In this document: in pieces, positions 1-18,033 of the stretch
Layout of the letters: every line of letters starts with the position of its first letter
Numbering within the stretch: the first letter of the stretch is position 1
From: Pseudomonadota bacterium
GTDB taxonomy: Bacteria > Pseudomonadota > Gammaproteobacteria > Methylococcales > Methylococcaceae
NCBI GenBank assembly: GCA_040753975.1
Contig: JBFMDC010000026.1
Coordinates: forward strand, 1-18,033
DNA length: 18,033 bases
Direction: 5' to 3'
Position numbers and translations under genes: made by a program
The notes under the pieces: model-generated
Seen by the model: only the letters and a program-made list of their open reading frames with translations
Database searches by the model: none
Told to the model about the DNA's origin: nothing

Positions 1-249
1 CGGGCTGTCCTGCCCGGCACCCTTCGGGCCAGTGCCAATCCGCTCCCGGCGGATTGGTCATGCCGGGCTGTCCTGCCCGGCACCCTTCGGGCCAGTGCCA
101 ATCCGCTCCCGGCGGATTGGTCATGCCCGGCTGTCCTGCCGGACACCCGGCGGGCCGGTGCCAGTCCGCTCCCGGCGGATTGGTCATGCCCGGCTGTCCT
201 GCCGGACACCCGGCGGGTCGGTGCCAGTCCGCTCCCGGCGGATTGGTCC
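1..249 (+). repeat. Tandem array of a 63-bp unit, about 4 copies. The first copy is truncated by the window edge. Copies 1-2 are identical; copies 3-4 are a shared variant. Each unit can fold into three short hairpins.
   Basis: Period 63 seen directly: unit starts at 60, 123 and 186, each beginning atgccgggctgtcctgcc. The same unit recurs at 17958-18033. Per-unit inverted repeats are ccgggc/gcccgg, ggcac...gtgcc and ccaatccgc-tcccg-gcggattgg. Confidence 0.85.
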
Positions 250-539: not shown

Positions 540-1829
540 ATGAAATCCCCCGAGCACTTGTTCCCCGCTGTCAGGCCGCAAGTCTCGGACAGCTTCAAGG
601 TGCTGAAACTGCTGGCCCTGGTGCTGCTGCGCGAATACCGCGAAGGCGGGATCAGACACCGGGCGATGAGCCTGGTGTATACCAGCCTGCTCTCCTTGGC
701 GCCGCTGCTGGCGGTGAGCTTTTCGGTGCTCAAGGCGTTCGGCGTGCACAATGAGATACAGCCGCTGCTGCTCGAAATGCTGGCTCCCCTGGGCGACAAA
801 GCGAAGGAGATCACCGATAAGGTCATCGGTTTCGTCGAGAACATCCAGGTGGGCGTTCTGGGCTTCGTCGGCTTTCTGATGCTGTTCTACACCGTGGTGT
901 CGCTGCTGGAGCAGATCGAGGACAGCTTCAATCACATCTGGCGGGTGTCCAGGACGCGCCCGCTGTACCGCCAGTTCAGCGACTACCTCAGCATCGTCCT
1001 GATCGGTCCGGTACTGCTGTTTTCCGCGATCGGCATCGCGGCGTCGATGAGCAGCATGGAAATCGTACAGCGGCTGATCGCTCTGGAGCCTTTCGGCACG
1101 GCCTACTATCTGGCCGGCATCGCCCTGCCCTATGTGCTGATCGTCGCCGCCTTTACCTTCGCCTATTCGTTCATACCCAACACCGGGGTGAAATGGCGGC
1201 CCGCGCTGGCGGGCGGCCTGTTTGCCGGCCTGAGCTGGAAAGCGACGGGCTTTCTGTTCGCCGAGTTCACGGTCAATTCCGCCCATTACAGCGCCATCTA
1301 TTCCGGCTTTGCCGTCATCCTCCTCTCCATGATCTGGCTGTACCTCAGTTGGCTCATCCTGCTGCTGGGGAGCGTCGTCTCCTTCCACATCCAGTTTCCG
1401 CGCTATCTCGGTTACGGCGGACGGCGGCCCCACCTGAGCCCCCAGTCCCAGGAGCGCCTCGCCCTGCTGCTCATGATCCTGATCGGACGGAGCCATGCGC
1501 GCGGCGCGCCCGCCTGCACGCTTCCCGACCTGGCGGATCAAATGAACCTGCCTTGGGAAGCCGTGGCGGACCCGCTGGAATGCCTGAAACAACACGGCCT
1601 GCTGTTAAGCCTGAACGGCGAGCAGAAAACATTTGTTCTCGCGCGGGATACCGATGCGATCCTGTTGAGCGAAGTGGTGGAGGCGGTTCGAACCGCGGGC
1701 GATCGGCCGGCCCTGACTCTTCAAGACGAACCCGATGCCGTCCGGGAAATCCTGGCCGCCATCGACCGCGGCCCGGAAACGACTCTGGGAAACCGCAGCT
1801 TGCGGGACGTCGTTCGGATCGAGGAATAG
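540..1829 (+). CDS. yihY: YihY/BrkB-family inner-membrane protein (the family formerly mis-named ribonuclease BN). It carries a C-terminal extension of about 130 aa.
   Basis: 429-aa ORF with multiple hydrophobic helices. Typical YihY segments are present (FYTVVSLLEQIEDSFNHIW, LLLGSVVSFHIQ). Ordinary family members are about 300 aa. Confidence 0.8.
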   Translation: MKSPEHLFPAVRPQVSDSFKVLKLLALVLLREYREGGIRHRAMSLVYTSLLSLAPLLAVSFSVLKAFGVHNEIQPLLLEMLAPLGDKAKEITDKVIGFVENIQVGVLGFVGFLMLFYTVVSLLEQIEDSFNHIWRVSRTRPLYRQFSDYLSIVLIGPVLLFSAIGIAASMSSMEIVQRLIALEPFGTAYYLAGIALPYVLIVAAFTFAYSFIPNTGVKWRPALAGGLFAGLSWKATGFLFAEFTVNSAHYSAIYSGFAVILLSMIWLYLSWLILLLGSVVSFHIQFPRYLGYGGRRPHLSPQSQERLALLLMILIGRSHARGAPACTLPDLADQMNLPWEAVADPLECLKQHGLLLSLNGEQKTFVLARDTDAILLSEVVEAVRTAGDRPALTLQDEPDAVREILAAIDRGPETTLGNRSLRDVVRIEE

Positions 1830-1984
1830 CCCCCGCACACGCCCCGTATCCGCTTTTCTCGGCTATCTGAGCGGCAGAAGACGTCGACGATCCTAATCTG
1901 TTCGGCAGGCTTTGCAGACGGCATGTGAAGGCTCCTCAGTTGGTTCAAAGGTTGGTAGGTCGCATGCCAAGGAACCCACTGCGG

Positions 1985-2323
1985 CTACCGCCCGAACTCG
2001 GACGGCGATTGCCCGATACTCTTCTTGAACGCCCTCGCGAACGACCCCGGTCTTTCGTAGCCGCTGCCCAATGCGATGTCGATGATCGGGCGGTGGCTGC
2101 GGAATGCGAGTTGATAGGCGGCGCGCTTCAACCGGCGGAGCTGGACGTATTGGTACACCCCGATGCCGAAAAGAGCGGCGAACTGACGGTGGAAATGATA
2201 TTTCGAGAAGGCGGCGACGCCACAGAGCCTGTCCGGCGTGAGATCGCCGTCCAGGTTCGCATCGACATACTCGAGTACCTTGCGGAATCTGGCGCGGTAT
2301 CTGTCCGAGCTTGTTGCACTCAA
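1985..2323 (-). CDS. Stand-alone AraC/XylS-type helix-turn-helix transcription factor, MarA/SoxS-like size (112 aa). TTG start.
   Basis: The whole protein is about one AraC HTH domain (…LCGVAAFSKYHFHRQFAALFGIGVYQYVQLRRLKRAAYQL…GYERPGSFARAFKKSIGQSPSEF). A strong SD (AAGGAGA) sits 8 nt upstream of TTG at 2323. No in-frame ATG lies upstream. Confidence 0.7.
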   Translation of the reverse strand: MSATSSDRYRARFRKVLEYVDANLDGDLTPDRLCGVAAFSKYHFHRQFAALFGIGVYQYVQLRRLKRAAYQLAFRSHRPIIDIALGSGYERPGSFARAFKKSIGQSPSEFGR

Positions 2324-2582
2324 CGAAATATCTCCTTGGCGACCGCCAGCTTAGCGCCCTGAATTCAATAATGCCTGACAGAAATTGCTGAATCGGCGGA
2401 GCCACGTTTTGACGTCAATCACAGAACATTTACGAAATCGGGTTCCGCCCCAACATTTCTTTACTTTCTGAGCGGTGGCGATTTGTAGGGGGAAGATGAT
2501 CAGCAAAGAGTCGCTACCGCGACGATGATTTGAATCGGGTTTCCGCACCCGAAGGCGGGTTACTTTCTTTTGCTCGGCCAAA

Positions 2583-2610
2583 GACCAGTTTGCCGGGAGC
2601 AAACTGGGTC
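2583..2610 (+). repeat. Hairpin GACCAGTTTGC-CGGGA-GCAAACTGGGTC. It belongs to a CGGGA-loop hairpin family together with 16412-16439 and the tandem-repeat hairpin.
   Basis: 9-bp perfect stem plus a bulged extension. Loop and GAC…GGTC flanks are shared with the hairpin at 16412-16439. Confidence 0.45.
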
Positions 2611-2839
2611 GCACGGAGTGCGCCCGAAGGGTTTGCGGCAGGAAAGCCGCAAAACAGCGTAACCAAAGAAAAGGCCGCCCGACTGCCGCGAAGGCCCCCG
2701 AGCGCCAAGGCTTTTGTCGGGGGGCGATCGAAGGGGCTTCCGCCAGCGGCTGCGGGAATGCCAATACATCATTATGTGACTCTACTTTCGAGAAAGTTAG
2801 TAGCTCCGTGAGTTCCCATGCAGAATTTTGCTAGACTTT

Positions 2840-3076
2840 CTAGATTGATGAAATTTCCCATCTCGCCTGAATCGTATCCGCAGAAAGGTCCGCTCCGCAG
2901 TCCCACTCAATAAAATACTTGCCGTTGTGAATTCGTTCAAACTCAGCCCTGTCCTTCAGCGGAGCGAAAGCTTCCGACTCGAGATATGGCTTTACATCGA
3001 ATAAACCAGCCTTGCCGTCTTCGCTCTTGATATAAAGCACGTAATTGTCTCTCGGAATTATTTCAACAATATTCAT
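2840..3076 (-). CDS. DUF2442-family small protein (78 aa). It is the downstream gene of a putative two-gene toxin-antitoxin-like module.
   Basis: Size and sequence are typical of DUF2442 (…YVLYIKSEDGKAGLFDVKPYL…GKYFIEWDCGADLSADTI). It overlaps the upstream DUF4160 gene by 4 nt (ATGA). The region is AT-rich. Confidence 0.7.
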   Translation of the reverse strand: MNIVEIIPRDNYVLYIKSEDGKAGLFDVKPYLESEAFAPLKDRAEFERIHNGKYFIEWDCGADLSADTIQARWEISSI

Positions 3077-3345
3077 TGATCAAGCCCTCGGATTGGAAAT
3101 GGTTTATTTCCGATTACGGCTAACTGCCAGTCAGCAAGTAAATCATCCTGATGTATCTCAATCCATGCAACAACCAGTTTGTGTTTCTTTAACGGAAGTT
3201 CGCCAGCCAATACGAAACCATCGTAAATTGAGTACACAGCAACGCGCCCCTGATATTCCGCATGAATATGCGGAACGCTGTGCTTATTCGTGTCATAGAA
3301 AAACATTCGAATAATAATACCATAGAACATCGATATGGTAGGCAT
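3073..3345 (-). CDS. DUF4160-family small protein (91 aa from the internal ATG at 3345; the upstream in-frame ATG at 3366 would give 98 aa). It is the upstream gene of the DUF4160/DUF2442 pair.
   Basis: MPTISMFYGIIIRMFFYDTNKHSVPHIHAEYQG is the canonical DUF4160 N-terminus. AGGAG lies upstream of the 3345 ATG. The pair co-occurs widely as an operon. Confidence 0.7.
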   Translation of the reverse strand: MPTISMFYGIIIRMFFYDTNKHSVPHIHAEYQGRVAVYSIYDGFVLAGELPLKKHKLVVAWIEIHQDDLLADWQLAVIGNKPFPIRGLDQ

Positions 3346-3381
3346 TAGAACCGTCTCTCCTGTCATACCTGATTTACTGAA

Positions 3382-3395
3382 CCGAATCTATTCGG
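3382..3395. promoter_or_regulatory. Palindrome CCGAAT-CT-ATTCGG just upstream of the DUF4160/DUF2442 pair. It is a candidate autoregulatory operator.
   Basis: Perfect 6-bp arms in an AT-rich 5' region, between the dnaE2 stop and the pair's start. Confidence 0.3.
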
Positions 3396-3453
3396 CCCCA
3401 GCATATCAAAGTAATTTTGCGATGCTTGTACATGTTATCTCACTTTTTGACGC

Positions 3454-6400
3454 TCACTGAAAATCCCTGGACTTTACCACCAACCCGTCCAGCCATTTTC
3501 CGATATCTTCCAGCCGCCCGGCGACGAGGTGCAATACGCCCTCCTCCTGCTGCACGGTGCCGGATACCGCGAGGAGGTGGGCATACAGCAGCGCACGGCG
3601 TTGGGCCTGGGCGGTGGCGGGCCAGACGATGAGGTTGATCTGGCCGGTTTCGTCTTCGATCGTGACGAAGGTGGTACCGTTGGCGGTCATGGGGCGCTGC
3701 CGGCAGACCACGAGGCCGGCAACGCGGGCGATGGCGCCGTTCCTCACCTGCCACAAAGCTTCGGCGGTGCGGAAGCCGCGGCGGTCCAGCCGCTCCCGTA
3801 GGAGACTCAACGGATGGCGGCGCAGGCTGGCGCCGGCGGCTGCATAGTCGGCGATGACGTCCTCGGCTTCGCCCGGTTTCCTCAGCAGGGGCGCGGCTTC
3901 GGCGAATTGCGGTTCGGCATAGAGCGGGGTCGGCGCTTCCACGCCGGCGGCTTCCCAGAAGGCGCGATGGCGGTGGCCGCCGAGTCCGCGCAGTGCATCG
4001 GCGGCGGCCAGCGCTTCCAGCTCGCGGCGGTCGAGCCGGGCGCGGGTGGCTAAATCCTGGACGCTTTGGAACAGGCTCTGCCGGCGGGCTTCGCTCAGGC
4101 GTTGCGCCGCAGCGGACGAGAATCCGTTGACCAGGCGCAGACCCAGCCGAAGGGCCGGAACGGGCGAGTCACCCGGCTCCAGCGCACAATCCCAGTCGCT
4201 GTGGTTGACGTCGATCGGGCGCACTTCGACGCCGTGGCGGCGGGCGTCCTGGATGAGCTGGGAGGGGCCGTAGAAGCCCATGGGCTGGCTGTTGAGGAGA
4301 GCGCAGGCGAAGGCGGCGGGATGGTGGCACTTGAGCCAGGCCGAGACGTAGGCCAGGAGGGCGAAGCTGGCGGAATGCGATTCGGGGAAGCCGTATTCGC
4401 CGAAACCCTGGATCTGGCGGTAGATCTGGCGGGCGAAGCGCTCTTCGTAGCCGCGTTCGCGCATCCCGTCCATCAGCTTCTTCTCGAACGGCTCCAGCCC
4501 GCCTTTGCGGTGCCAGGCGGCCATGGCGCGGCGCAGTTGGTCGGCCTCGCCCGGCGTGAATCCGGCGGCGACCATGGCCAGTTGCATCACCTGCTCCTGA
4601 AAGATCGGCACGCCCAGCGTCCGCTTCAGCACCTTCTCCACATCGGGGCCGGGGTAGGACACCGGCTCCAGCCCGGCCCGCCGGGTAAGATAAGGATGCA
4701 CCATGTCGCCCTGGATCGGTCCGGGCCGGACGATGGCGATCTGGATCACCAGGTCGTAGTAGTTCTTGGGCCGCAGCCTCGGCAGCATGCTCATCTGCGC
4801 CCGCGATTCCACCTGGAACACGCCGATGCTGTCGGCCCGCTGCAGCATCTCGTACACCGCCGGGTCTTCCGGGGGGATGTCGGCCAGCGCGAACGGCCGG
4901 CCCAGCCCTTCGCCCACGTAGGCCAGCGCCTTGCGGATCGCGGTCAGCATGCCCAAAGACAGGACGTCGACCTTGAGCAGCCCCAGGGACTCCAGATCGT
5001 CCTTGTCCCACTGGATCACGGTGCGCTCGGGCATGGCGGCGTTTTCCACCGGCACCCAGTGCGACAGGTCCTCGGCAGCGATGACGAAGCCGCCCACGTG
5101 CTGGGACAGGTGGCGGGGAAAACCCACCAGCATCTGCACCAGGGCCAGCAGACGCCGCACCGCCGGGTTTTCGGACGCGAGGCCGGCTTCGGCCAGGCGC
5201 TCCGGCAATGTCTCCGCGACGCCGTGGCGGTCGAGCACCCGCGCCAGGGTGTCGATCCGCGACGGTGAAAAGCCCAGGGCGCGGGCGACGTCGCGCACCG
5301 CGCTCCTCACGCGGTAGGTGATGAGGCTGGCCGCCAGCGCCGCCCGGTGGCGGCCGTACTTGCGGTAGATGTACTGGATGACCTCCTCGCGCCGCTCATG
5401 CTCGAAATCCACGTCGATGTCGGGCGGCTCGTTGCGTTCCTTGGAGATGAAGCGCTCGAACAGCAGATCGAGCCGGGCCGGATCGACCTCGGTGATGCCG
5501 AGGCAATAGCACACCGCCGAATTGGCCGCCGATCCCCTGCCCTGGCACAGGATGCCACGGCTGCGGGCGAACTGGACCACATCATGCACGGTCAGGAAGA
5601 ACGGCTCGTAGGCCATGGCGCCGATCAGTTCCAGTTCGTGCCCGACCTGCCGCCGCACCTTGTCCGGCACGCCTTCCGGCCAGCGCTTGGCCATGCCTTG
5701 CCGGGTCAGCTCGCGCAGCCAATCGATGGCCGTGTAGCCGTCCGGCACCAGCTCGGCCGGGTATTCGTAGCGCAGTTCGTCCAGCGAAAACCGGCAGCGC
5801 TCGGCGATGCGCAGCGATTCTTCGAGGAGTGGCCGCGGATAAATCCGCGCCAGGGTCTCGACGGGACGCAGATGGCGCTCGCTGTTCGGAAACAGCGCGT
5901 AGCCGAGTTCCGCCAGCGGCTTGCCGAGGCGGATGGCGGTCAGGGTGTCCTGCAGCGGCTGGCGCTCGCGGGCGTGCATATGGACGTCGTTGCAGGCGAC
6001 CAGGGGGAGGCCCAGCCGATCGCCCAGCGCCTGTAGGGCGGCCAGGCGGCGGCCGTCCTCGCCGCCCAGGAACAGCTCGGCGCCGATCCAGCAGCGGGCC
6101 GGAAACAGCCGCGCCAGCCAGGCGCCGGTTTCGGCATCGGGCGCGTCTTCCGGCAGCCAGAGCGCGAGGCAATGGTCGAGCGCGTGGGTTTCGAGCTGAT
6201 GGCGGAGCAGCCGGTACCCGCCTTTCTCCGCCGCCCGCCGGCCCAGGGTGATGAAGGCCGCGAGCTGGCCGTAGCCGCGGCGGTCGGTCGCCAGCAGCAC
6301 CAGCTTGGGACCACCCTCCAGGCGGAATTCGCTGCCGATGATGAGCTTGAAGCCGAGTTGCTTGGCCTCGGCATGGGCGCGCACCGCGCCGGCCAGCGAG

Positions 6401-6522
6401 CATTCGTCGGTGAGCGCCAGGGCCGCGTAGCCCAACCGGGCGGCTTCGGCCACCAGCTCCTTGGGATGCGAGGCCCCGCGCAGGAAGCTGAAATTGCTCA
6501 GGGCATGCAGCTCGGCGAACAT
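3454..6522 (-). CDS. dnaE2: Error-prone DNA polymerase III alpha-subunit paralogue DnaE2 (ImuC), 1022 aa.
   Basis: It begins MFAELHALSNFSFLRGASHPKELV…LALTDECSLAGAV (PHP domain) and continues with pol III alpha motifs. The ORF-track ORF reaches 7122, but the conserved N-terminus starts at the ATG at 6522, 4 nt after the imuB stop. Confidence 0.9.
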   Translation of the reverse strand: MFAELHALSNFSFLRGASHPKELVAEAARLGYAALALTDECSLAGAVRAHAEAKQLGFKLIIGSEFRLEGGPKLVLLATDRRGYGQLAAFITLGRRAAEKGGYRLLRHQLETHALDHCLALWLPEDAPDAETGAWLARLFPARCWIGAELFLGGEDGRRLAALQALGDRLGLPLVACNDVHMHARERQPLQDTLTAIRLGKPLAELGYALFPNSERHLRPVETLARIYPRPLLEESLRIAERCRFSLDELRYEYPAELVPDGYTAIDWLRELTRQGMAKRWPEGVPDKVRRQVGHELELIGAMAYEPFFLTVHDVVQFARSRGILCQGRGSAANSAVCYCLGITEVDPARLDLLFERFISKERNEPPDIDVDFEHERREEVIQYIYRKYGRHRAALAASLITYRVRSAVRDVARALGFSPSRIDTLARVLDRHGVAETLPERLAEAGLASENPAVRRLLALVQMLVGFPRHLSQHVGGFVIAAEDLSHWVPVENAAMPERTVIQWDKDDLESLGLLKVDVLSLGMLTAIRKALAYVGEGLGRPFALADIPPEDPAVYEMLQRADSIGVFQVESRAQMSMLPRLRPKNYYDLVIQIAIVRPGPIQGDMVHPYLTRRAGLEPVSYPGPDVEKVLKRTLGVPIFQEQVMQLAMVAAGFTPGEADQLRRAMAAWHRKGGLEPFEKKLMDGMRERGYEERFARQIYRQIQGFGEYGFPESHSASFALLAYVSAWLKCHHPAAFACALLNSQPMGFYGPSQLIQDARRHGVEVRPIDVNHSDWDCALEPGDSPVPALRLGLRLVNGFSSAAAQRLSEARRQSLFQSVQDLATRARLDRRELEALAAADALRGLGGHRHRAFWEAAGVEAPTPLYAEPQFAEAAPLLRKPGEAEDVIADYAAAGASLRRHPLSLLRERLDRRGFRTAEALWQVRNGAIARVAGLVVCRQRPMTANGTTFVTIEDETGQINLIVWPATAQAQRRALLYAHLLAVSGTVQQEEGVLHLVAGRLEDIGKWLDGLVVKSRDFQ

Positions 6523-6526
6523 CGCT

Positions 6527-7999
6527 TCAGCCGAACAGGCCGTGCAAATGCCAGGGCCCCGCCGTCCCGGCGTCCCGGTAGATCCACAGCCGGGCCCCGG
6601 CGCCGTCGACCGCCACATGATAATCGCGCCGCACCGGCCCGCCGTCCCACCAGCCGGTTTCGATCCGCTCGCACTCGGGCAGGATGCGGATGTCCCGCTT
6701 GGATAAAAGCCGGGGCCGAGGCAGCAGCCACAGGGGCCGGGGCGACCGCGCCGCCGCGCCGCTGCGGGGTGCGTTGCCGGATGCCGCCCGCTCCGGCCGG
6801 TGATCGGCGCGGAGCACGGGCTGGCGCAAGGCCTGCGGTCCCAGCCGCGCCTGGAGGCGGTCGAGCAGTTCGTCCCAAGCCTCCCCGCTGGCCGCCTCGG
6901 GCGTGAACAGGTCCGCCATCGGCACGGCGAACGGCTGGAGGTCGGCGCTTCGCAGCAGCAAGCCCCGGACCGGGGCGGGCAGCGCCACCCGCTCCAGCCG
7001 CTGGCGCAGCAGGGCTGCGAATTGCCCGGCCTGCCGTCCTGCCCGGCGTGGCCTTGAGCAAACCCGCGTCGGCGCGGCGCGGGCATGCCGCAGTTCGAGC
7101 TCCAGCTCCGCGGCGACGGCATCGCGGCTCCGCAGGAAAGCCTCGAATTCCGCCAGCAAAACTTCGACCAGCGGGAAGACCTGGGTCAGGTCTTCGGTTT
7201 CCATCGCCAGTTCTCGCTCGGCGCGGAATCGGGGCGGGGCATGGAACTGCCGCAGCGGCTGGGGCCGGCTGCCCGCGGCCTCGTCCAGCCGCCGCAGCAG
7301 ATCGCGGCCATAGCGGCGCGCCAGACCGTCCCGCGGCATGCGCCAGAGATCGCGCAGCACCTGCAGTCCGGCACGGGCAAGACGGCCGGTGAGCTTATCG
7401 TCGATGCCCAGCGCGGCGACGGGCAGATCGCCCAGCGCGGAACGCAGCGCCTCAGCCTCGAGCACCGGCGCCGGGAACCCTGCCTGCGCCATCAGCCAGG
7501 CCGCCGCGGGCGTCGGCGCCAGACCGCATTGCACCGCGTGGCCGTCCGCCGCACGGCAGGCCGTTTCGGCCAGCGCCTCCGGCCCGCCGAACAGCCGCAG
7601 GCTGCCGCGTACCTCCAGTTGGAGGGTGGCCGGGAAGTCCAGGCTGATCCAAGGGGTGAAGCGCAGGCAGCGTTCCGCCAGCCGGGAAAGGGCCCGCCGC
7701 TCGGCCTCCGGGTCCCGGTTCACCGCCGTCAGCCCAGGACAGAGCGCCTGAGCTTCGGCCAAGGCCATGCCGGGGACGACACCCTGTGCTTCGGCTGCCG
7801 CCGAAGCACTGTGAACCAGGAGCCGGCCGCCACCGGCTTCGGTGACGGCGATCGGTTCGGACGCCGCGGCCCCTAAAGCCTCCAGCGCAAGCGCGGGGAA
7901 ATGCAGCGCCAGCCAGAGCGGCGCGGCCTCGGCCGGGGGGACCTCGCATGGCGGTTCCGCCGGGAGAGAAGGGGAATGGTAAGCGCGCGCGAGGGACAT
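6527..7999 (-). CDS. imuB: ImuB, a Y-family polymerase-like protein of the mutagenesis cassette, 490 aa.
   Basis: …LWLALHFPALALEALG… is the typical ImuB N-terminal motif. It sits between imuA and dnaE2. It has a Pro-rich leader of about 25 aa before the conserved start, with no alternative in-frame ATG. Confidence 0.85.
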   Translation of the reverse strand: MSLARAYHSPSLPAEPPCEVPPAEAAPLWLALHFPALALEALGAAASEPIAVTEAGGGRLLVHSASAAAEAQGVVPGMALAEAQALCPGLTAVNRDPEAERRALSRLAERCLRFTPWISLDFPATLQLEVRGSLRLFGGPEALAETACRAADGHAVQCGLAPTPAAAWLMAQAGFPAPVLEAEALRSALGDLPVAALGIDDKLTGRLARAGLQVLRDLWRMPRDGLARRYGRDLLRRLDEAAGSRPQPLRQFHAPPRFRAERELAMETEDLTQVFPLVEVLLAEFEAFLRSRDAVAAELELELRHARAAPTRVCSRPRRAGRQAGQFAALLRQRLERVALPAPVRGLLLRSADLQPFAVPMADLFTPEAASGEAWDELLDRLQARLGPQALRQPVLRADHRPERAASGNAPRSGAAARSPRPLWLLPRPRLLSKRDIRILPECERIETGWWDGGPVRRDYHVAVDGAGARLWIYRDAGTAGPWHLHGLFG

Positions 8000-8005
8000 G
8001 GCGCC

Positions 8006-8626
8006 CTACAGCACCAAGCGGACGCGCGCCCCGCCGAATCCGCCGCGGGCCTTGAGTATCCGCAGTTCCAGCCCGCCTTCGCAGACTCCGAGGCTCAGGC
8101 GCAACGCCGCCGTACCGCCGGCAGCACCGCCGGAGAACAGCATGCCGAGCGCGCCCCCTTCCCCCGCCGCCAGCTGCAGGCGGCGCCAGGCGGAGGGCGG
8201 CAGCGTCCGTGGCCAAGCCAGCACCAGGCCGGTCTCGGGATGGCGCAGCACCAGTTCCAGCGTCCAGCTCAAGTCCCGCTTGTGGTCCGCCACCGCCACC
8301 ACCAGCATCCGCCCGATCTCGACCCCGGCCTGGACCAGCGCCGGCGCGTAGGGCTCGAACGGCGGCGCGACCCACACCAGCCGGCGCCCATCCCCGGCGA
8401 TGCGCCGCATCAGCGGCAGTAGCAGCCGCAGTTCGCCGATGCCGTGGCTCGGCGCGACGATCTCGGTCAGGGCGCCCGCCGGCCAGCCGCCGCCCGGCAG
8501 CACCGCATCCAGCGCCGCATGGCCGCTGGGGACGACCGGCGCCCGCCAGGCTGCCGGCCGGCGCCCGCGCCAGACCCGGGGGTCGCGGTCCAGCAGCTCG
8601 GCCAGTGCCTCCACCTTCCCGGCCAT
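8006..8626 (-). CDS. imuA: ImuA (SulA/RecA-fold cell-division-inhibitor-like protein), 206 aa.
   Basis: The conserved start MAGKVEALAELLDRD…ALDAVLPGGGWPAGALTEI lies at position 106 of the longer ORF-track ORF (8006..8941). Its ATG overlaps the lexA stop by 1 nt (TGATG). Confidence 0.8.
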   Translation of the reverse strand: MAGKVEALAELLDRDPRVWRGRRPAAWRAPVVPSGHAALDAVLPGGGWPAGALTEIVAPSHGIGELRLLLPLMRRIAGDGRRLVWVAPPFEPYAPALVQAGVEIGRMLVVAVADHKRDLSWTLELVLRHPETGLVLAWPRTLPPSAWRRLQLAAGEGGALGMLFSGGAAGGTAALRLSLGVCEGGLELRILKARGGFGGARVRLVL

Positions 8627-9234
8627 CAGCCCACCCGGGTGCGGATCACGCCGACCACGATGCCTTCGATGCAAAGCGGCTGGCGTTCCAGATCGACGGC
8701 GATGACGGAAAACTCGGGATTGGCGGGCTCCAGATAGGCCACGGCACCCTCCAGCCGCAGGCGCTTCACGGTCACCTCGTCGTGGAGGCGCGCCACCACG
8801 ATCTGGCCGGAGCGGGCCTCCTGCGCCTGCTGCACCACCAGCAGATCGCCGTCGATGATGCCGGCGTCGCGCATGCTCATGCCCTGGACCCGCAGCAGAT
8901 AATCGCCCTTGTGCCCGAACAGCTCCGGCCCCAGCCGGCAATGGCGCTCGACCTGGGCCTCGGTCATCAGCGGCCGTCCCGCCGCGACCTTGCCGATCAG
9001 AGGGAGGTCCATGTCCTCGGCCTTGGCGAGCAGGCGGATGCCGCGCGAGGCGGAAGGGATCAGCTCGATCGCCCCCTTGCGCTCCAAAGCGCGCAACTGC
9101 TCCCGAACCCCATGAGGGGAGCTGACCCCGATGGCGCGGGCGATCTCGGCGATGGTGGGAGGAAAACCTTCGTCTTCCACGCTGCGGCGGATGCAGTCCA
9201 GGATTTCGCGTTGGCGGATGGTCAGGGGCTTCAT
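8626..9234 (-). CDS. lexA: LexA repressor, 202 aa from the second ATG. The first in-frame ATG is at 9243.
   Basis: The protein aligns end to end with E. coli LexA (MKPLTIRQREILD…; cleavage site VAAG; catalytic GMSMRDAGI Ser and VTVKRL Lys). Confidence 0.9.
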   Translation of the reverse strand: MKPLTIRQREILDCIRRSVEDEGFPPTIAEIARAIGVSSPHGVREQLRALERKGAIELIPSASRGIRLLAKAEDMDLPLIGKVAAGRPLMTEAQVERHCRLGPELFGHKGDYLLRVQGMSMRDAGIIDGDLLVVQQAQEARSGQIVVARLHDEVTVKRLRLEGAVAYLEPANPEFSVIAVDLERQPLCIEGIVVGVIRTRVG

Positions 9235-9248
9235 GCTCGGCATACGAA

Positions 9249-9268
9249 TACTGTTTTTATGAACAGTA
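9249..9268. promoter_or_regulatory. LexA (SOS) box TACTGTTTTTATGAACAGTA.
   Basis: A perfect CTGT-N8-ACAG motif lies inside a longer palindrome (cgaatactg…cagtattcg), 6 nt upstream of the first lexA ATG. It overlaps the -10 of the promoter below. Confidence 0.9.
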
Positions 9269-11149: not shown

Positions 11150-11875
11150 CGTCGGGGTCTCTCAAGAAACACGCCGGGCCGCCCCAAGTGTTTCTTGCCC
11201 ATTGATGGGTCAAAAACGGAGCGCAGCGGGTTTTTGGGGGTGGGCTAACTCATTGAGGTAAGCCCCCGGCTTTGGCGGGGGACTCACCGGGGTTTGACCT
11301 GTACGGCGGTCGTTGTGAACCTGAAATCTCGACCAAGAGATGGAGGTTCACGATGAAAGAGTACCAGAGTCTTTCCCCCACCAGATGGGGTTGTAAGTAT
11401 CACGTAGTGTTTATCCCGAAGCGGCGGAAGAAACAGATTTTTGGAGCGGTCAAGCGGCATCTTGGAGAGATATTTCATGAACTTGCCGGGCACAAAGAGT
11501 CGAAAATCGTGGCGGGCCACTTGATGGGGGATCACGTACACATGTGCATCAGCATACCGCCGAAGTGCGCGGTTTCGAGCGTGGTGGGCTAGATCAAGGG
11601 CAAGAGCGCGATCCAAATCGCCCGGCAATTTGGTGGTCGGCGGAGGAATTTCACCGGGGAGAATTTTTGGGCCAGGGGCTACTTCGTTTCCACGGTGGGC
11701 TTGGATGAGGCCATGGTTCGGGCATATATCCGCCGACAGGAACAGGAGGATGAGCGCCACGATCAGATGAAGCTTGGCCTGTAGGTGACCGCCTTGGGCG
11801 GCTCATGATTTTACGGCGCCTTTGAGGCGCTCACCCAATAAGCCCCCGGCTTTGCCGGGGGTGATTTAACTATTC
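11150..11875 (+). mobile_element. IS200/IS605-family insertion sequence, about 0.7 kb. Its boundaries are approximate.
   Basis: An HUH/Y1 tnpA is flanked by near-identical subterminal hairpins: gcccccggctttggcggggg at 11262-11281 and gcccccggctttgccggggg at 11842-11861. An additional left-end palindrome caagaaacac…gtgtttcttg lies at 11163-11197, as in IS200. There are no terminal inverted repeats, as expected for this family. Confidence 0.7.
11353..11784 (+). pseudogene. tnpA: IS200-type transposase TnpA interrupted by an in-frame TAG at 11590-11592. The stop falls between the HUH motif and the catalytic Tyr.
   Basis: MKEYQSLSPTRWGCKYHVVFIPKRRK…GDHVHMCISIPPKCAVSSVVG-TAG-IKGKSAIQIARQFGG…ENFWARGYFVSTVG…RAYIRRQ is read in a single frame. 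GGAGG lies 6 nt upstream of the ATG. The TAG sits where IS200 TnpA has a conserved Tyr (GYLKGKS). Confidence 0.75.
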
Positions 11876-17957: not shown

Positions 17958-18033
17958 ATGCCGGGCTGTCCTGCCCGGCACCCTTCGGGCCAGTGCCAAT
18001 CCGCTCCCGGCGGATTGGTCATGCCGGGCTGTC
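17958..18033 (+). repeat. The same 63-bp tandem-repeat unit as at 1-249, about 1.2 copies (units 1-2 type), truncated by the window edge.
   Basis: Identical to 60-122. The last 9 nt of the window equal its first 9 nt. Confidence 0.85.

What the first reader, a model, noticed from the sequence alone, without database searches (positions are those of the whole stretch)
2840..3453. AT-rich DUF4160/DUF2442 pair inserted directly downstream of dnaE2, co-directional with the SOS operon
The two small genes overlap by 4 nt (translational coupling). They lie in a region whose base composition is far more AT-rich than anything else in the window. They start 88 nt after the dnaE2 stop on the same strand, and no obvious terminator lies between. 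DUF4160/DUF2442 pairs are uncharacterised and are suspected toxin-antitoxin-like modules. Placement behind a LexA-controlled mutagenesis operon raises the possibility of read-through SOS induction, in addition to the pair's own promoter and the CCGAAT-CT-ATTCGG palindrome.
Basis: partly seen in the sequence, partly recalled or inferred. Interest (0 to 1): 0.55.

Follow-up and report, generated by a model that had tools for sequence, protein, structure and literature searches.

The report
Known-type toxin-antitoxin pair behind dnaE2
The two small AT-rich genes after the error-prone polymerase gene dnaE2 are a horizontally acquired toxin-antitoxin pair of a family (DhiT/DhiA) already shown by experiment to work that way, so the finding is real but fairly ordinary.

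Summary
On the minus strand, a DUF4160 gene (3345-3073) and a DUF2442 gene (3076-2840) overlap by ATGA. They lie in a 0.7-kb block of 43% GC, the lowest in a 65% GC window. The block starts directly after the stop codon of dnaE2, the last gene of a LexA-box-preceded lexA-imuA-imuB-dnaE2 operon. No terminator was predicted in between.

DUF4160/DUF2442 pairs are a validated type II toxin-antitoxin family: DhiTA in Dickeya dadantii (2021) and a plasmid persistence module in Thermus (2025). In both, the toxin gene comes first.

The host is a Methylococcus population. The pair is shared only by lineages 95-99.5% identical to the window. It is absent downstream of dnaE2 in all 80 other relatives examined. 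None of 80 related pairs from metagenomes lies next to SOS genes, so the placement looks like a single insertion.

Two sister lineages inactivated the toxin independently, one by a +1 frameshift and one by a Q74 stop. The antitoxin is intact in all 14 contigs.

The perfect palindrome exists only in this window, and the spacer evolves three to four times faster than dnaE2.

SOS read-through is plausible and has an exact precedent in E. coli dinB-yafNO, but it is untested. This is a new member of a known kind, of low to moderate interest.

The parts
9251..9266 (.). LexA box (CTGT-N8-ACAG) upstream of lexA; the only one in the window
   Evidence: 1 match, 0.13 expected by chance
8626..9243 (-). 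lexA, first gene of the SOS mutagenesis operon
   Evidence: LexA_DNA_bind 2.5e-26 and Peptidase_S24 1.1e-27
8006..8626 (-). imuA
   Evidence: NF033429 ImuA_translesion, 181.9 bits against a cutoff of 150; its start codon overlaps the lexA stop
6527..7999 (-). imuB (Y-family-like)
   Evidence: IMS 6.4e-11; syntenic imuB found in 66 of 85 dnaE2 loci
3454..6522 (-). dnaE2 (error-prone Pol III alpha paralogue, 1022 aa)
   Evidence: PHP, DNA_pol3_alpha, finger, HHH_6 and OB domains; 94% aa identity to a Methylococcus sp. MAG
3346..3453 (-). AT-rich spacer between dnaE2 and the toxin gene. It has no predicted terminator and diverges fast between lineages. It contains TGATATGCT (3408-3400), a possible extended -10 element, which I read from the sequence by eye
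3382..3395 (.). Palindrome CCGAAT-AG-ATTCGG; perfect only in this window (G3393 is T in three sister lineages)
3073..3345 (-). DhiT-like toxin gene (DUF4160, 90 aa; alternative upstream ATG at 3366). It is intact here, frameshifted between 3219 and 3218 in L001-L005, and carries a Q74 stop (C3126>T) in L171-L177
2840..3076 (-). DhiA-like antitoxin gene (DUF2442 only, 78 aa). Its start overlaps the toxin stop (ATGA) and it has its own GAGG Shine-Dalgarno sequence. It is intact in all 14 contigs of this locus: identical in L001-L005, and longer (102 aa) with 2-3 substitutions in L171-L178
2757..2839 (-). AT-rich tail of the inserted block. The L002 rearrangement breakpoint (about 2752) lies at its distal end
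2401..2826 (.). Lineage-specific non-coding segment. In sister lineage L178 it is replaced by the antitoxin tail plus a 174-aa ORF

Best explanation
This is a horizontally acquired type II toxin-antitoxin module of the DhiT/DhiA (DUF4160/DUF2442) family. It is lodged directly after the last gene of the lexA-imuA-imuB-dnaE2 operon of an uncultured Methylococcus population.

**Mechanism.**
- Shown for other family members: the first gene encodes a growth-inhibiting toxin. The second, translationally coupled gene encodes a protein antitoxin that neutralises it by direct binding. The module therefore behaves as an addictive, selfish element.
- Inferred for this copy: the same mechanism applies. 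The biochemical target of the toxin is unknown. The conserved D18, H26, H28, H65 and D72 residues suggest an enzyme.

**Location.** The position is most likely incidental, the product of one insertion event in one lineage. Because the spacer has no terminator and no clear promoter, the pair is probably transcribed at least partly by read-through from the LexA-controlled operon, as yafNO is from PdinB in E. coli. This step is inferred, not shown.

**Decay.** The module is decaying in the population. Toxin-null alleles arose twice while the antitoxin is kept.
For: **Family membership.**
- Pfam DUF4160 scores 78.4 bits and DUF2442 scores 47 bits, both above their cutoffs.
- The NCBIfam DhiT model matches at 1.5e-24 over positions 1-82 of 84.
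- The toxin is 39% identical (E 1e-21) to the toxin of a Thermus pTthSNM plasmid, which belongs to the experimentally tested series. The antitoxin is 23% identical (E 1e-4).
- Toxin-first order with an ATGA overlap is found in almost all of the 78 metagenomic relatives that have a DUF2442 partner. Dickeya dhiTA has the same arrangement.

**Experimental basis of the family.** See PMC8198452 and PMC12724237.

**Foreign origin.**
- The block is 43% GC against 65% for the window, and GC3 is 0.41-0.51 against 0.87 in dnaE2.
- The pair is absent from 80 dnaE2 loci, including the closest (94% aa).
- Relatives at 84% nucleotide identity lie in unrelated flanks.
- Some relatives are integron cassettes.
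- A related pair sits elsewhere in Methylococcus sp. ANG, next to transposases.

**Toxin function inferred from decay.** There are two independent toxin-null alleles: a +1 frameshift in L001-L005 and a Q74 stop in L171-L177. The antitoxin is intact in all 14 contigs, with 4 synonymous against 2-3 non-synonymous changes.

**Read-through.** The pair is on the same strand, the gap is 108 nt, no terminator is predicted and the spacer has no significant structure. There is a single LexA box at the head of the operon. The precedent is dinB-yafNO (PMC2814082).
Against: - Nothing about this copy has been tested: not its toxicity, its neutralisation or its transcription.
- The toxin scores below NCBI's equivalog cutoff (86.4 against 100 bits).
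- The antitoxin covers only the N-terminal 65 of 160 positions of the DhiA model (15.4 bits). It therefore differs from the Dickeya antitoxin and may not bind DNA.
- The exact 90-aa toxin of this window is not on record elsewhere. It carries F44 where sister lineages have S, so even this copy could be impaired.
- Q74* removes only 17 residues. Calling it a null allele is an inference.
- Rho-dependent termination cannot be predicted.
- The contigs of each lineage come from related samples and are not independent observations.
Confidence: 0.8

Rival explanations
1. The pair is a functional, selected part of the SOS response. It is co-induced with ImuA-ImuB-DnaE2 from the LexA promoter, and the toxin slows growth while error-prone synthesis proceeds, as in a yafNO-type arrangement.
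For: It shares a strand with the operon, no terminator is predicted, and no consensus promoter of its own was found. The arrangement is kept in lineages 5% apart. E. coli dinB-yafNO provides a precedent.
Against: The association is unique to this lineage. None of 80 dnaE2 relatives carries the pair, and none of 80 relatives of the pair lies next to SOS genes. The toxin was inactivated twice independently, which argues against selection for its activity. The composition has not ameliorated towards that of the host.
Confidence: 0.12
2. The pair is an anti-phage (abortive infection) toxin-antitoxin module in a small variable defence islet downstream of dnaE2.
For: DUF4160 occurs as an effector domain of the Menshen system (PMC12065111). 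The region downstream of the pair is variable: a 174-aa ORF in sister lineages against 426 nt of non-coding DNA here, plus a rearrangement breakpoint. The toxin matches phrog_14333.
Against: Neither protein of the pair nor the 174-aa ORF has a PADLOC match. No recognised defence genes lie nearby. No phage data exist for this family.
Confidence: 0.15
3. The pair is an inert relic. The module is no longer functional in any lineage, and the intact reading frames in this window are just not yet broken.
For: Twelve of the 14 contigs of this locus carry a broken toxin gene. The spacer evolves fast. The window toxin has a private S44F change.
Against: The antitoxin is intact everywhere, with mostly synonymous change. 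The toxin is full length, with all 25 invariant family positions present. L178 also keeps an intact toxin.
Confidence: 0.2

Closest known systems
DhiTA of Dickeya dadantii 3937 (DUF4160 toxin DhiT / DUF2442 antitoxin DhiA; PMC8198452)
   Same: It has the same two Pfam domains, the same toxin-first order and overlapping genes. The toxin matches the NCBIfam DhiT model over its full length (1.5e-24).
   Different: The toxin scores below the equivalog cutoff (86.4 against 100 bits). The DhiA model has 160 positions, and this antitoxin has 78 aa covering only positions 4-68. Autoregulation, shown in Dickeya, has no conserved operator here.
Persistence-Enhancing Module of Thermus thermophilus pTthSNM-type plasmids (PMC12724237)
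   Same: It is a short DUF4160 (86-87 aa) plus a short DUF2442-only partner (91-92 aa), with the toxin first. The toxins are 39% identical over 89 residues. The Thermus toxin scores similarly against the DhiT model (90.7 bits).
   Different: It is plasmid-borne and stabilises plasmids, and its two genes are separated by 10 nt. The pair here is chromosomal, its genes overlap by 4 nt, and the antitoxins are only 23% identical.
E. coli dinB-yafN-yafO-yafP operon (SOS-regulated type II TA behind a translesion polymerase; PMC2814082)
   Same: A toxin-antitoxin pair lies directly downstream of, and co-directional with, an SOS-controlled error-prone polymerase gene.
   Different: The polymerase differs (Pol IV against DnaE2), the TA family differs (YafO/YafN, antitoxin first), and yafNO has a mapped promoter of its own. 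Co-transcription is not shown here.
Toxin-antitoxin gene cassettes of chromosomal integrons
   Same: Close relatives of this pair are bounded by attC core sites. Fifteen of 78 have GTTRRRY at -27 to -48 of the ATG, against 2.65 expected. L122 sits between canonical attC sites in an array. The pair carries only about 25 nt of conserved leader.
   Different: The window has no canonical attC site on either side. No integrase appears among the genes checked against Pfam or among the Pfam hits on record for the 99.5%-identical contig L001.

Membership tests
DhiT/DhiA (DUF4160/DUF2442) type II toxin-antitoxin | First gene encodes a DUF4160 (PF13711) protein | tested here: met
   78.4 bits against a cutoff of 23, profile positions 1-65 of 65
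DhiT/DhiA (DUF4160/DUF2442) type II toxin-antitoxin | Toxin reaches the NCBIfam DhiT equivalog score (NF048015, 100 bits) | tested here: not met
   86.4 bits, E 1.5e-24. The experimentally related Thermus toxin also falls short (90.7 bits)
DhiT/DhiA (DUF4160/DUF2442) type II toxin-antitoxin | Second gene encodes a DUF2442 (PF10387) protein | tested here: met
   47 bits against a cutoff of 23.9
DhiT/DhiA (DUF4160/DUF2442) type II toxin-antitoxin | Antitoxin matches full-length DhiA (NF048016, 160 positions, cutoff 200 bits) | tested here: not met
   15.4 bits, positions 4-68 only. This is the short, DUF2442-only form, as in Thermus
DhiT/DhiA (DUF4160/DUF2442) type II toxin-antitoxin | Toxin-first bicistronic arrangement with overlapping or adjacent genes | tested here: met
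   ATGA overlap. The same arrangement occurs in most of 78 relatives
DhiT/DhiA (DUF4160/DUF2442) type II toxin-antitoxin | Toxin inhibits growth and the antitoxin neutralises it | not testable with these tools
   Indirect only: two independent toxin-null alleles with the antitoxin retained
DhiT/DhiA (DUF4160/DUF2442) type II toxin-antitoxin | Own promoter repressed by the antitoxin or by the toxin-antitoxin complex | tested here: inconclusive
   No consensus promoter. The palindrome is not conserved in sister lineages or in relatives. The spacer diverges fast
SOS-regulated toxin-antitoxin in a translesion polymerase operon (dinB-yafNO type) | LexA box at the operon promoter | tested here: met
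   CTGTTTTTATGAACAG at 9251-9266
SOS-regulated toxin-antitoxin in a translesion polymerase operon (dinB-yafNO type) | Toxin-antitoxin mRNA rises after DNA damage through transcription from the polymerase promoter | not testable with these tools
   Only permissive evidence: same strand and no predicted terminator
Integron gene cassette | attC recombination site (RYYYAAC ... GTTRRRY imperfect palindrome) at the 3' end, and an R' core just upstream | tested here: not met
   none in the window. It is met in relatives such as L122

The most novel reading that the evidence does not exclude
The DhiT-type toxin is a true member of the LexA regulon in this Methylococcus. The pair has no effective promoter of its own and is made only when the lexA-imuA-imuB-dnaE2 operon is derepressed. 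DNA damage would then trigger both the mutasome and a toxin-driven growth pause. The repeated loss of the toxin would show the cost of that coupling.
Probability: 0.12. Interest if true: 0.5.

Novelty: new member of a known kind. Interest (0 to 1): 0.25.

Why it matters
It adds a chromosomal example, from natural populations, of the little-studied DhiT/DhiA toxin-antitoxin family. The metagenomic variants provide a small natural experiment: the toxin was knocked out twice while the antitoxin was kept. This supports the toxin and antitoxin roles assigned in Dickeya and Thermus.

It also offers a second possible case, after E. coli dinB-yafNO, of a toxin-antitoxin pair riding on an SOS polymerase operon. 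None of this changes how the family or the SOS response is understood, unless co-induction is demonstrated and shown to matter.

Tried and rejected
- **Palindrome as a conserved operator: rejected as a family feature.** The upstream 125 nt of 73 relatives share nothing but the ribosome-binding region. Sister lineages carry a mismatch in the palindrome.
- **Integron cassette in the window: not supported.** I found no attC site under two sets of criteria and no integrase.
- **Flanking direct repeats as target-site duplications: rejected.** Only a 12/15 match was found (2824-2838 and 3413-3427). It is not conserved in sister lineages and is probably chance.
- **RNA elements in 1800-3700: none.** The only hit was a sub-threshold ffh sRNA match (E 0.15).
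- **Solved-structure relatives by sequence: none.** Neither protein matched, whether searched alone or as a profile.
- **Fold of the antitoxin: not searched.** The model was too poor (pLDDT 60).
- **The 426-nt segment 2401-2826: unidentified.** It has no copies in any fetched locus or in plasmids, and its ORFs have no NCBIfam family.
- **The 174-aa ORF of sister lineages: unidentified.** It looked HEPN-like to me by eye, but it has no Pfam, NCBIfam, PADLOC or PHROG match.
- **Closest dnaE2 relative (L006) as an empty-site reference: of limited use.** Its whole context differs.

Full report
**What is in the sequence**

On the minus strand the window carries lexA (9243-8626), imuA (8626-8006), imuB (7999-6527) and dnaE2 (6522-3454). 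The identifications rest on Pfam and NCBIfam. LexA has LexA_DNA_bind plus Peptidase_S24. ImuA scores 181.9 bits against a cutoff of 150. ImuB has IMS. DnaE2 has PHP, DNA_pol3_alpha, finger, HHH_6 and OB domains. A canonical LexA box, CTGT-N8-ACAG, lies just upstream of lexA at 9251-9266. It is the only one in the window.

Two small ORFs follow dnaE2 on the same strand. One matches DUF4160 (PF13711, 4.7e-22, full-length profile). The other matches DUF2442 (PF10387, 3e-12). They overlap by ATGA (3076-3073).

ATG 3345, 108 nt after the stop, is the better start for three reasons:
- Nearly all of the 120 best homologues are 90 aa and begin MPTIS.
- A GGAGAG sequence lies 9 nt upstream of it.
- Nucleotide homology to other pairs starts only about 24 nt upstream of it.

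**Composition and signals**

Positions 2755-3453 are 42.6% GC, against 64.7% for the whole window and 69-76% for the operon. The next-lowest 614-nt stretch in the window is 54%. GC3 is 0.41 and 0.51 in the pair, against 0.87 in dnaE2.

No terminator-like site lies between dnaE2 and the pair. The scan finds no sigma-70 consensus promoter on that strand. The spacer folds no better than shuffled sequence (z = -1.0). The palindrome CCGAAT-AG-ATTCGG is at 3395-3382.

**What the pair is**

The literature held here shows that DUF4160/DUF2442 pairs are no longer uncharacterised.

In Dickeya dadantii 3937 the pair was named dhiTA. The toxin gene comes first and the two genes overlap and are co-transcribed. 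DhiT inhibits growth in both Dickeya and E. coli, and co-expression of DhiA removes the effect. A promoter in the 100 bp upstream is repressed about 50% by the antitoxin and more by the complex (PMC8198452).

In Thermus thermophilus plasmids the same kind of pair increases plasmid persistence. Deleting the second (DUF2442) gene prevents transformation, while deleting the first does not (PMC12724237).

A 2025 analysis lists DUF4160 as an effector domain, typically followed by DUF2442, with no confident structural homologue (PMC12065111).

The copy in this window compares as follows:
- The toxin matches NCBIfam's DhiT model over positions 1-82 of 84 (1.5e-24). At 86.4 bits it stays under the equivalog cutoff of 100.
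- The toxin of a Thermus pTthSNM plasmid scores about the same, 90.7 bits.
- The window toxin is 39% identical to that Thermus toxin (E 1e-21). The antitoxins are 23% identical (E 1e-4).
- The DhiA model has 160 positions. The 78-aa antitoxin here matches only positions 4-68. It is the short, DUF2442-only form, as in Thermus, and lacks whatever the C-terminal half of Dickeya DhiA does.

**Foreign origin and age**

DnaE2 is 94% identical to that of a Methylococcus sp. MAG, so the host is a Methylococcus.

None of 80 dnaE2 loci from other species carries the pair within the fetched flanks. In the closest one, L006, similarity to the window begins and ends exactly at the dnaE2 reading frame, and the neighbours are different genes. 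L006 shows absence of the pair, but it is not a clean empty site.

Contigs that are 99.5% identical (L001-L005) and about 95% identical (L171-L178) to the window do carry the pair at the same place, after the same 108-nt spacer. The insertion therefore predates about 5% nucleotide divergence and is confined to this species-level group.

Relatives of the pair are numerous: 4109 toxin hits. They reach 84% nucleotide identity in unrelated flanks. They are usually more AT-rich than their surroundings. Thirty-seven plasmid records carry a homologue. A related pair sits in two complete Methylococcus genomes at another locus beside transposases.

Some relatives are integron cassettes. Fifteen of 78 have the attC R' core GTTRRRY 27-48 nt before the ATG, against 2.65 expected. 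In L122 the pair sits between canonical attC sites in an array of three. The window has no attC site.

**Evidence on function from natural variants**

The 14 contigs of this locus fall into three groups:
- Five contigs (L001-L005) carry a +1 insertion between 3219 and 3218. It destroys the C-terminal half of the toxin.
- Seven contigs (L171-L177) carry C3126>T, which gives Q74*. It removes 17 residues, including four invariant positions.
- The window and L178 keep an intact 90-aa toxin.

The two lesions are different and lie in different lineages, so they arose independently.

The antitoxin reading frame is intact in all 14 contigs, and its changes are mostly synonymous (4 synonymous against 2-3 non-synonymous). 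This is the pattern expected if the first gene is harmful when unopposed and the second protects. It agrees with the roles found by experiment in Dickeya and Thermus.

There are two caveats. The contigs within each lineage come from related samples. Treating Q74* as a null allele is an inference.

**Regulation**

The idea of a private promoter plus a palindromic operator is weakly supported, for these reasons:
- The perfect palindrome is unique to the window. L001, L171 and L178 all have T at 3393, giving CCTAAT..ATTCGG.
- The spacer differs by 13-16% between lineages whose dnaE2 differs by 4.3% and whose toxin-antitoxin genes differ by 1.5-3%.
- The upstream regions of 73 relatives share only the ribosome-binding region.
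- The short antitoxin lacks the C-terminal half of DhiA.

One conserved stretch, ACTTTGATATGCTGGG (3412-3397), contains TGATATGCT. It could be an extended -10 element just before the palindrome. I read this from the sequence by eye and did not test it.

With no terminator and no clear promoter, read-through from the LexA-controlled operon is a reasonable inference. It has an exact precedent. E. coli yafNO lies directly downstream of dinB. Its induction by mitomycin C comes entirely from the dinB promoter, and yafNO also has an autoregulated promoter of its own (PMC2814082).

Against an evolved functional link, none of 80 dnaE2 relatives has the pair and none of 80 pair relatives lies next to dnaE2, imuB or lexA. 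The toxin is also being lost.

**Structure**

**Verdict**

This is a real, well-delimited, horizontally acquired DhiT/DhiA-type toxin-antitoxin module at the tail of an SOS mutagenesis operon. It is intact in this window and broken in most sampled relatives. It is a new member of a known kind. SOS read-through is plausible but untested, and the location is probably incidental. Interest is low to moderate.

Noticed in passing
window 3-248 and about 17960-18033: A 63-nt tandem repeat (3.9 copies, 95% matches) lies at the start of the window, and the same unit appears again at its very end. The contig seems to be bounded by copies of one dispersed repeat, which probably broke the assembly.
   Followed up: partly
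window about 2752; L002 8421-8857; L001 13783-14219: Contig L002 is 99.5% identical to the window up to about 2752. It then continues with the reverse complement of the inside of a 424-aa Pyr_redox_2 (sulfide:quinone-reductase-like) gene that lies 4 kb away in L001. This is either an inversion or an assembly chimera. The breakpoint coincides with the distal edge of the AT-rich block.
   Followed up: partly
L006 6004-9072 (MAG Methylococcus sp. STC_26): This dnaE2 is 90% nucleotide-identical to the window exactly from start codon to stop codon. It is flanked by a response regulator and a histidine kinase upstream and a transpeptidase/class-D beta-lactamase-like ORF downstream, with no imuB, imuA or lexA. 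The polymerase gene alone appears to have changed context.
   Followed up: partly
window 3454-9243 against its flanks: The lexA-imuA-imuB-dnaE2 cassette is 68-76% GC, while neighbouring genes are 54-62% GC. The mutagenesis cassette itself may be an older acquisition.
   Followed up: no
L178 714-1238; L173 1972-2502; window 2401-2826: Sister lineages carry a 174-176-aa ORF with no Pfam, NCBIfam, PADLOC or PHROG match between the pair and the AraC-type ORF. The window has 426 nt of unique non-coding DNA instead.
   Followed up: partly
L122 3883-3975, 4522-4582, 6384-6479; also L131, L149, L165: Relatives of the pair lie between canonical attC sites, and the tails of many longer DUF2442 homologues (..DAQQ..) appear to run into an attC R'' box (GCCCAAC). 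I inferred that last point from the protein tails and did not check it against DNA. This toxin-antitoxin family seems to travel partly as integron gene cassettes with only about 25 nt of leader.
   Followed up: partly
window 1985-2323 (minus strand): This 112-aa ORF consists only of an AraC-type HTH_18 domain, with no ligand-binding half. It is conserved at 91% aa in L178. It may be a truncated regulator gene or a stand-alone HTH protein.
   Followed up: no
L167 and L168 7732-8291 (Methylococcus sp. ANG CP160399; CP079095): A related DUF4160/DUF2442 pair (antitoxin 82% identical, 96 aa) lies at a different locus, after NRPS and esterase genes and next to DDE_3 transposases. L168 also has a second, orphan DUF2442 gene beside an Mrr_cat-like ORF.
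   Followed up: no
L001 1496-1735 (roughly window 11350-11590): A 79-aa fragment of a Y1_Tnp (IS200-type) transposase is annotated in the near-identical contig, about 2 kb beyond lexA.
   Followed up: no
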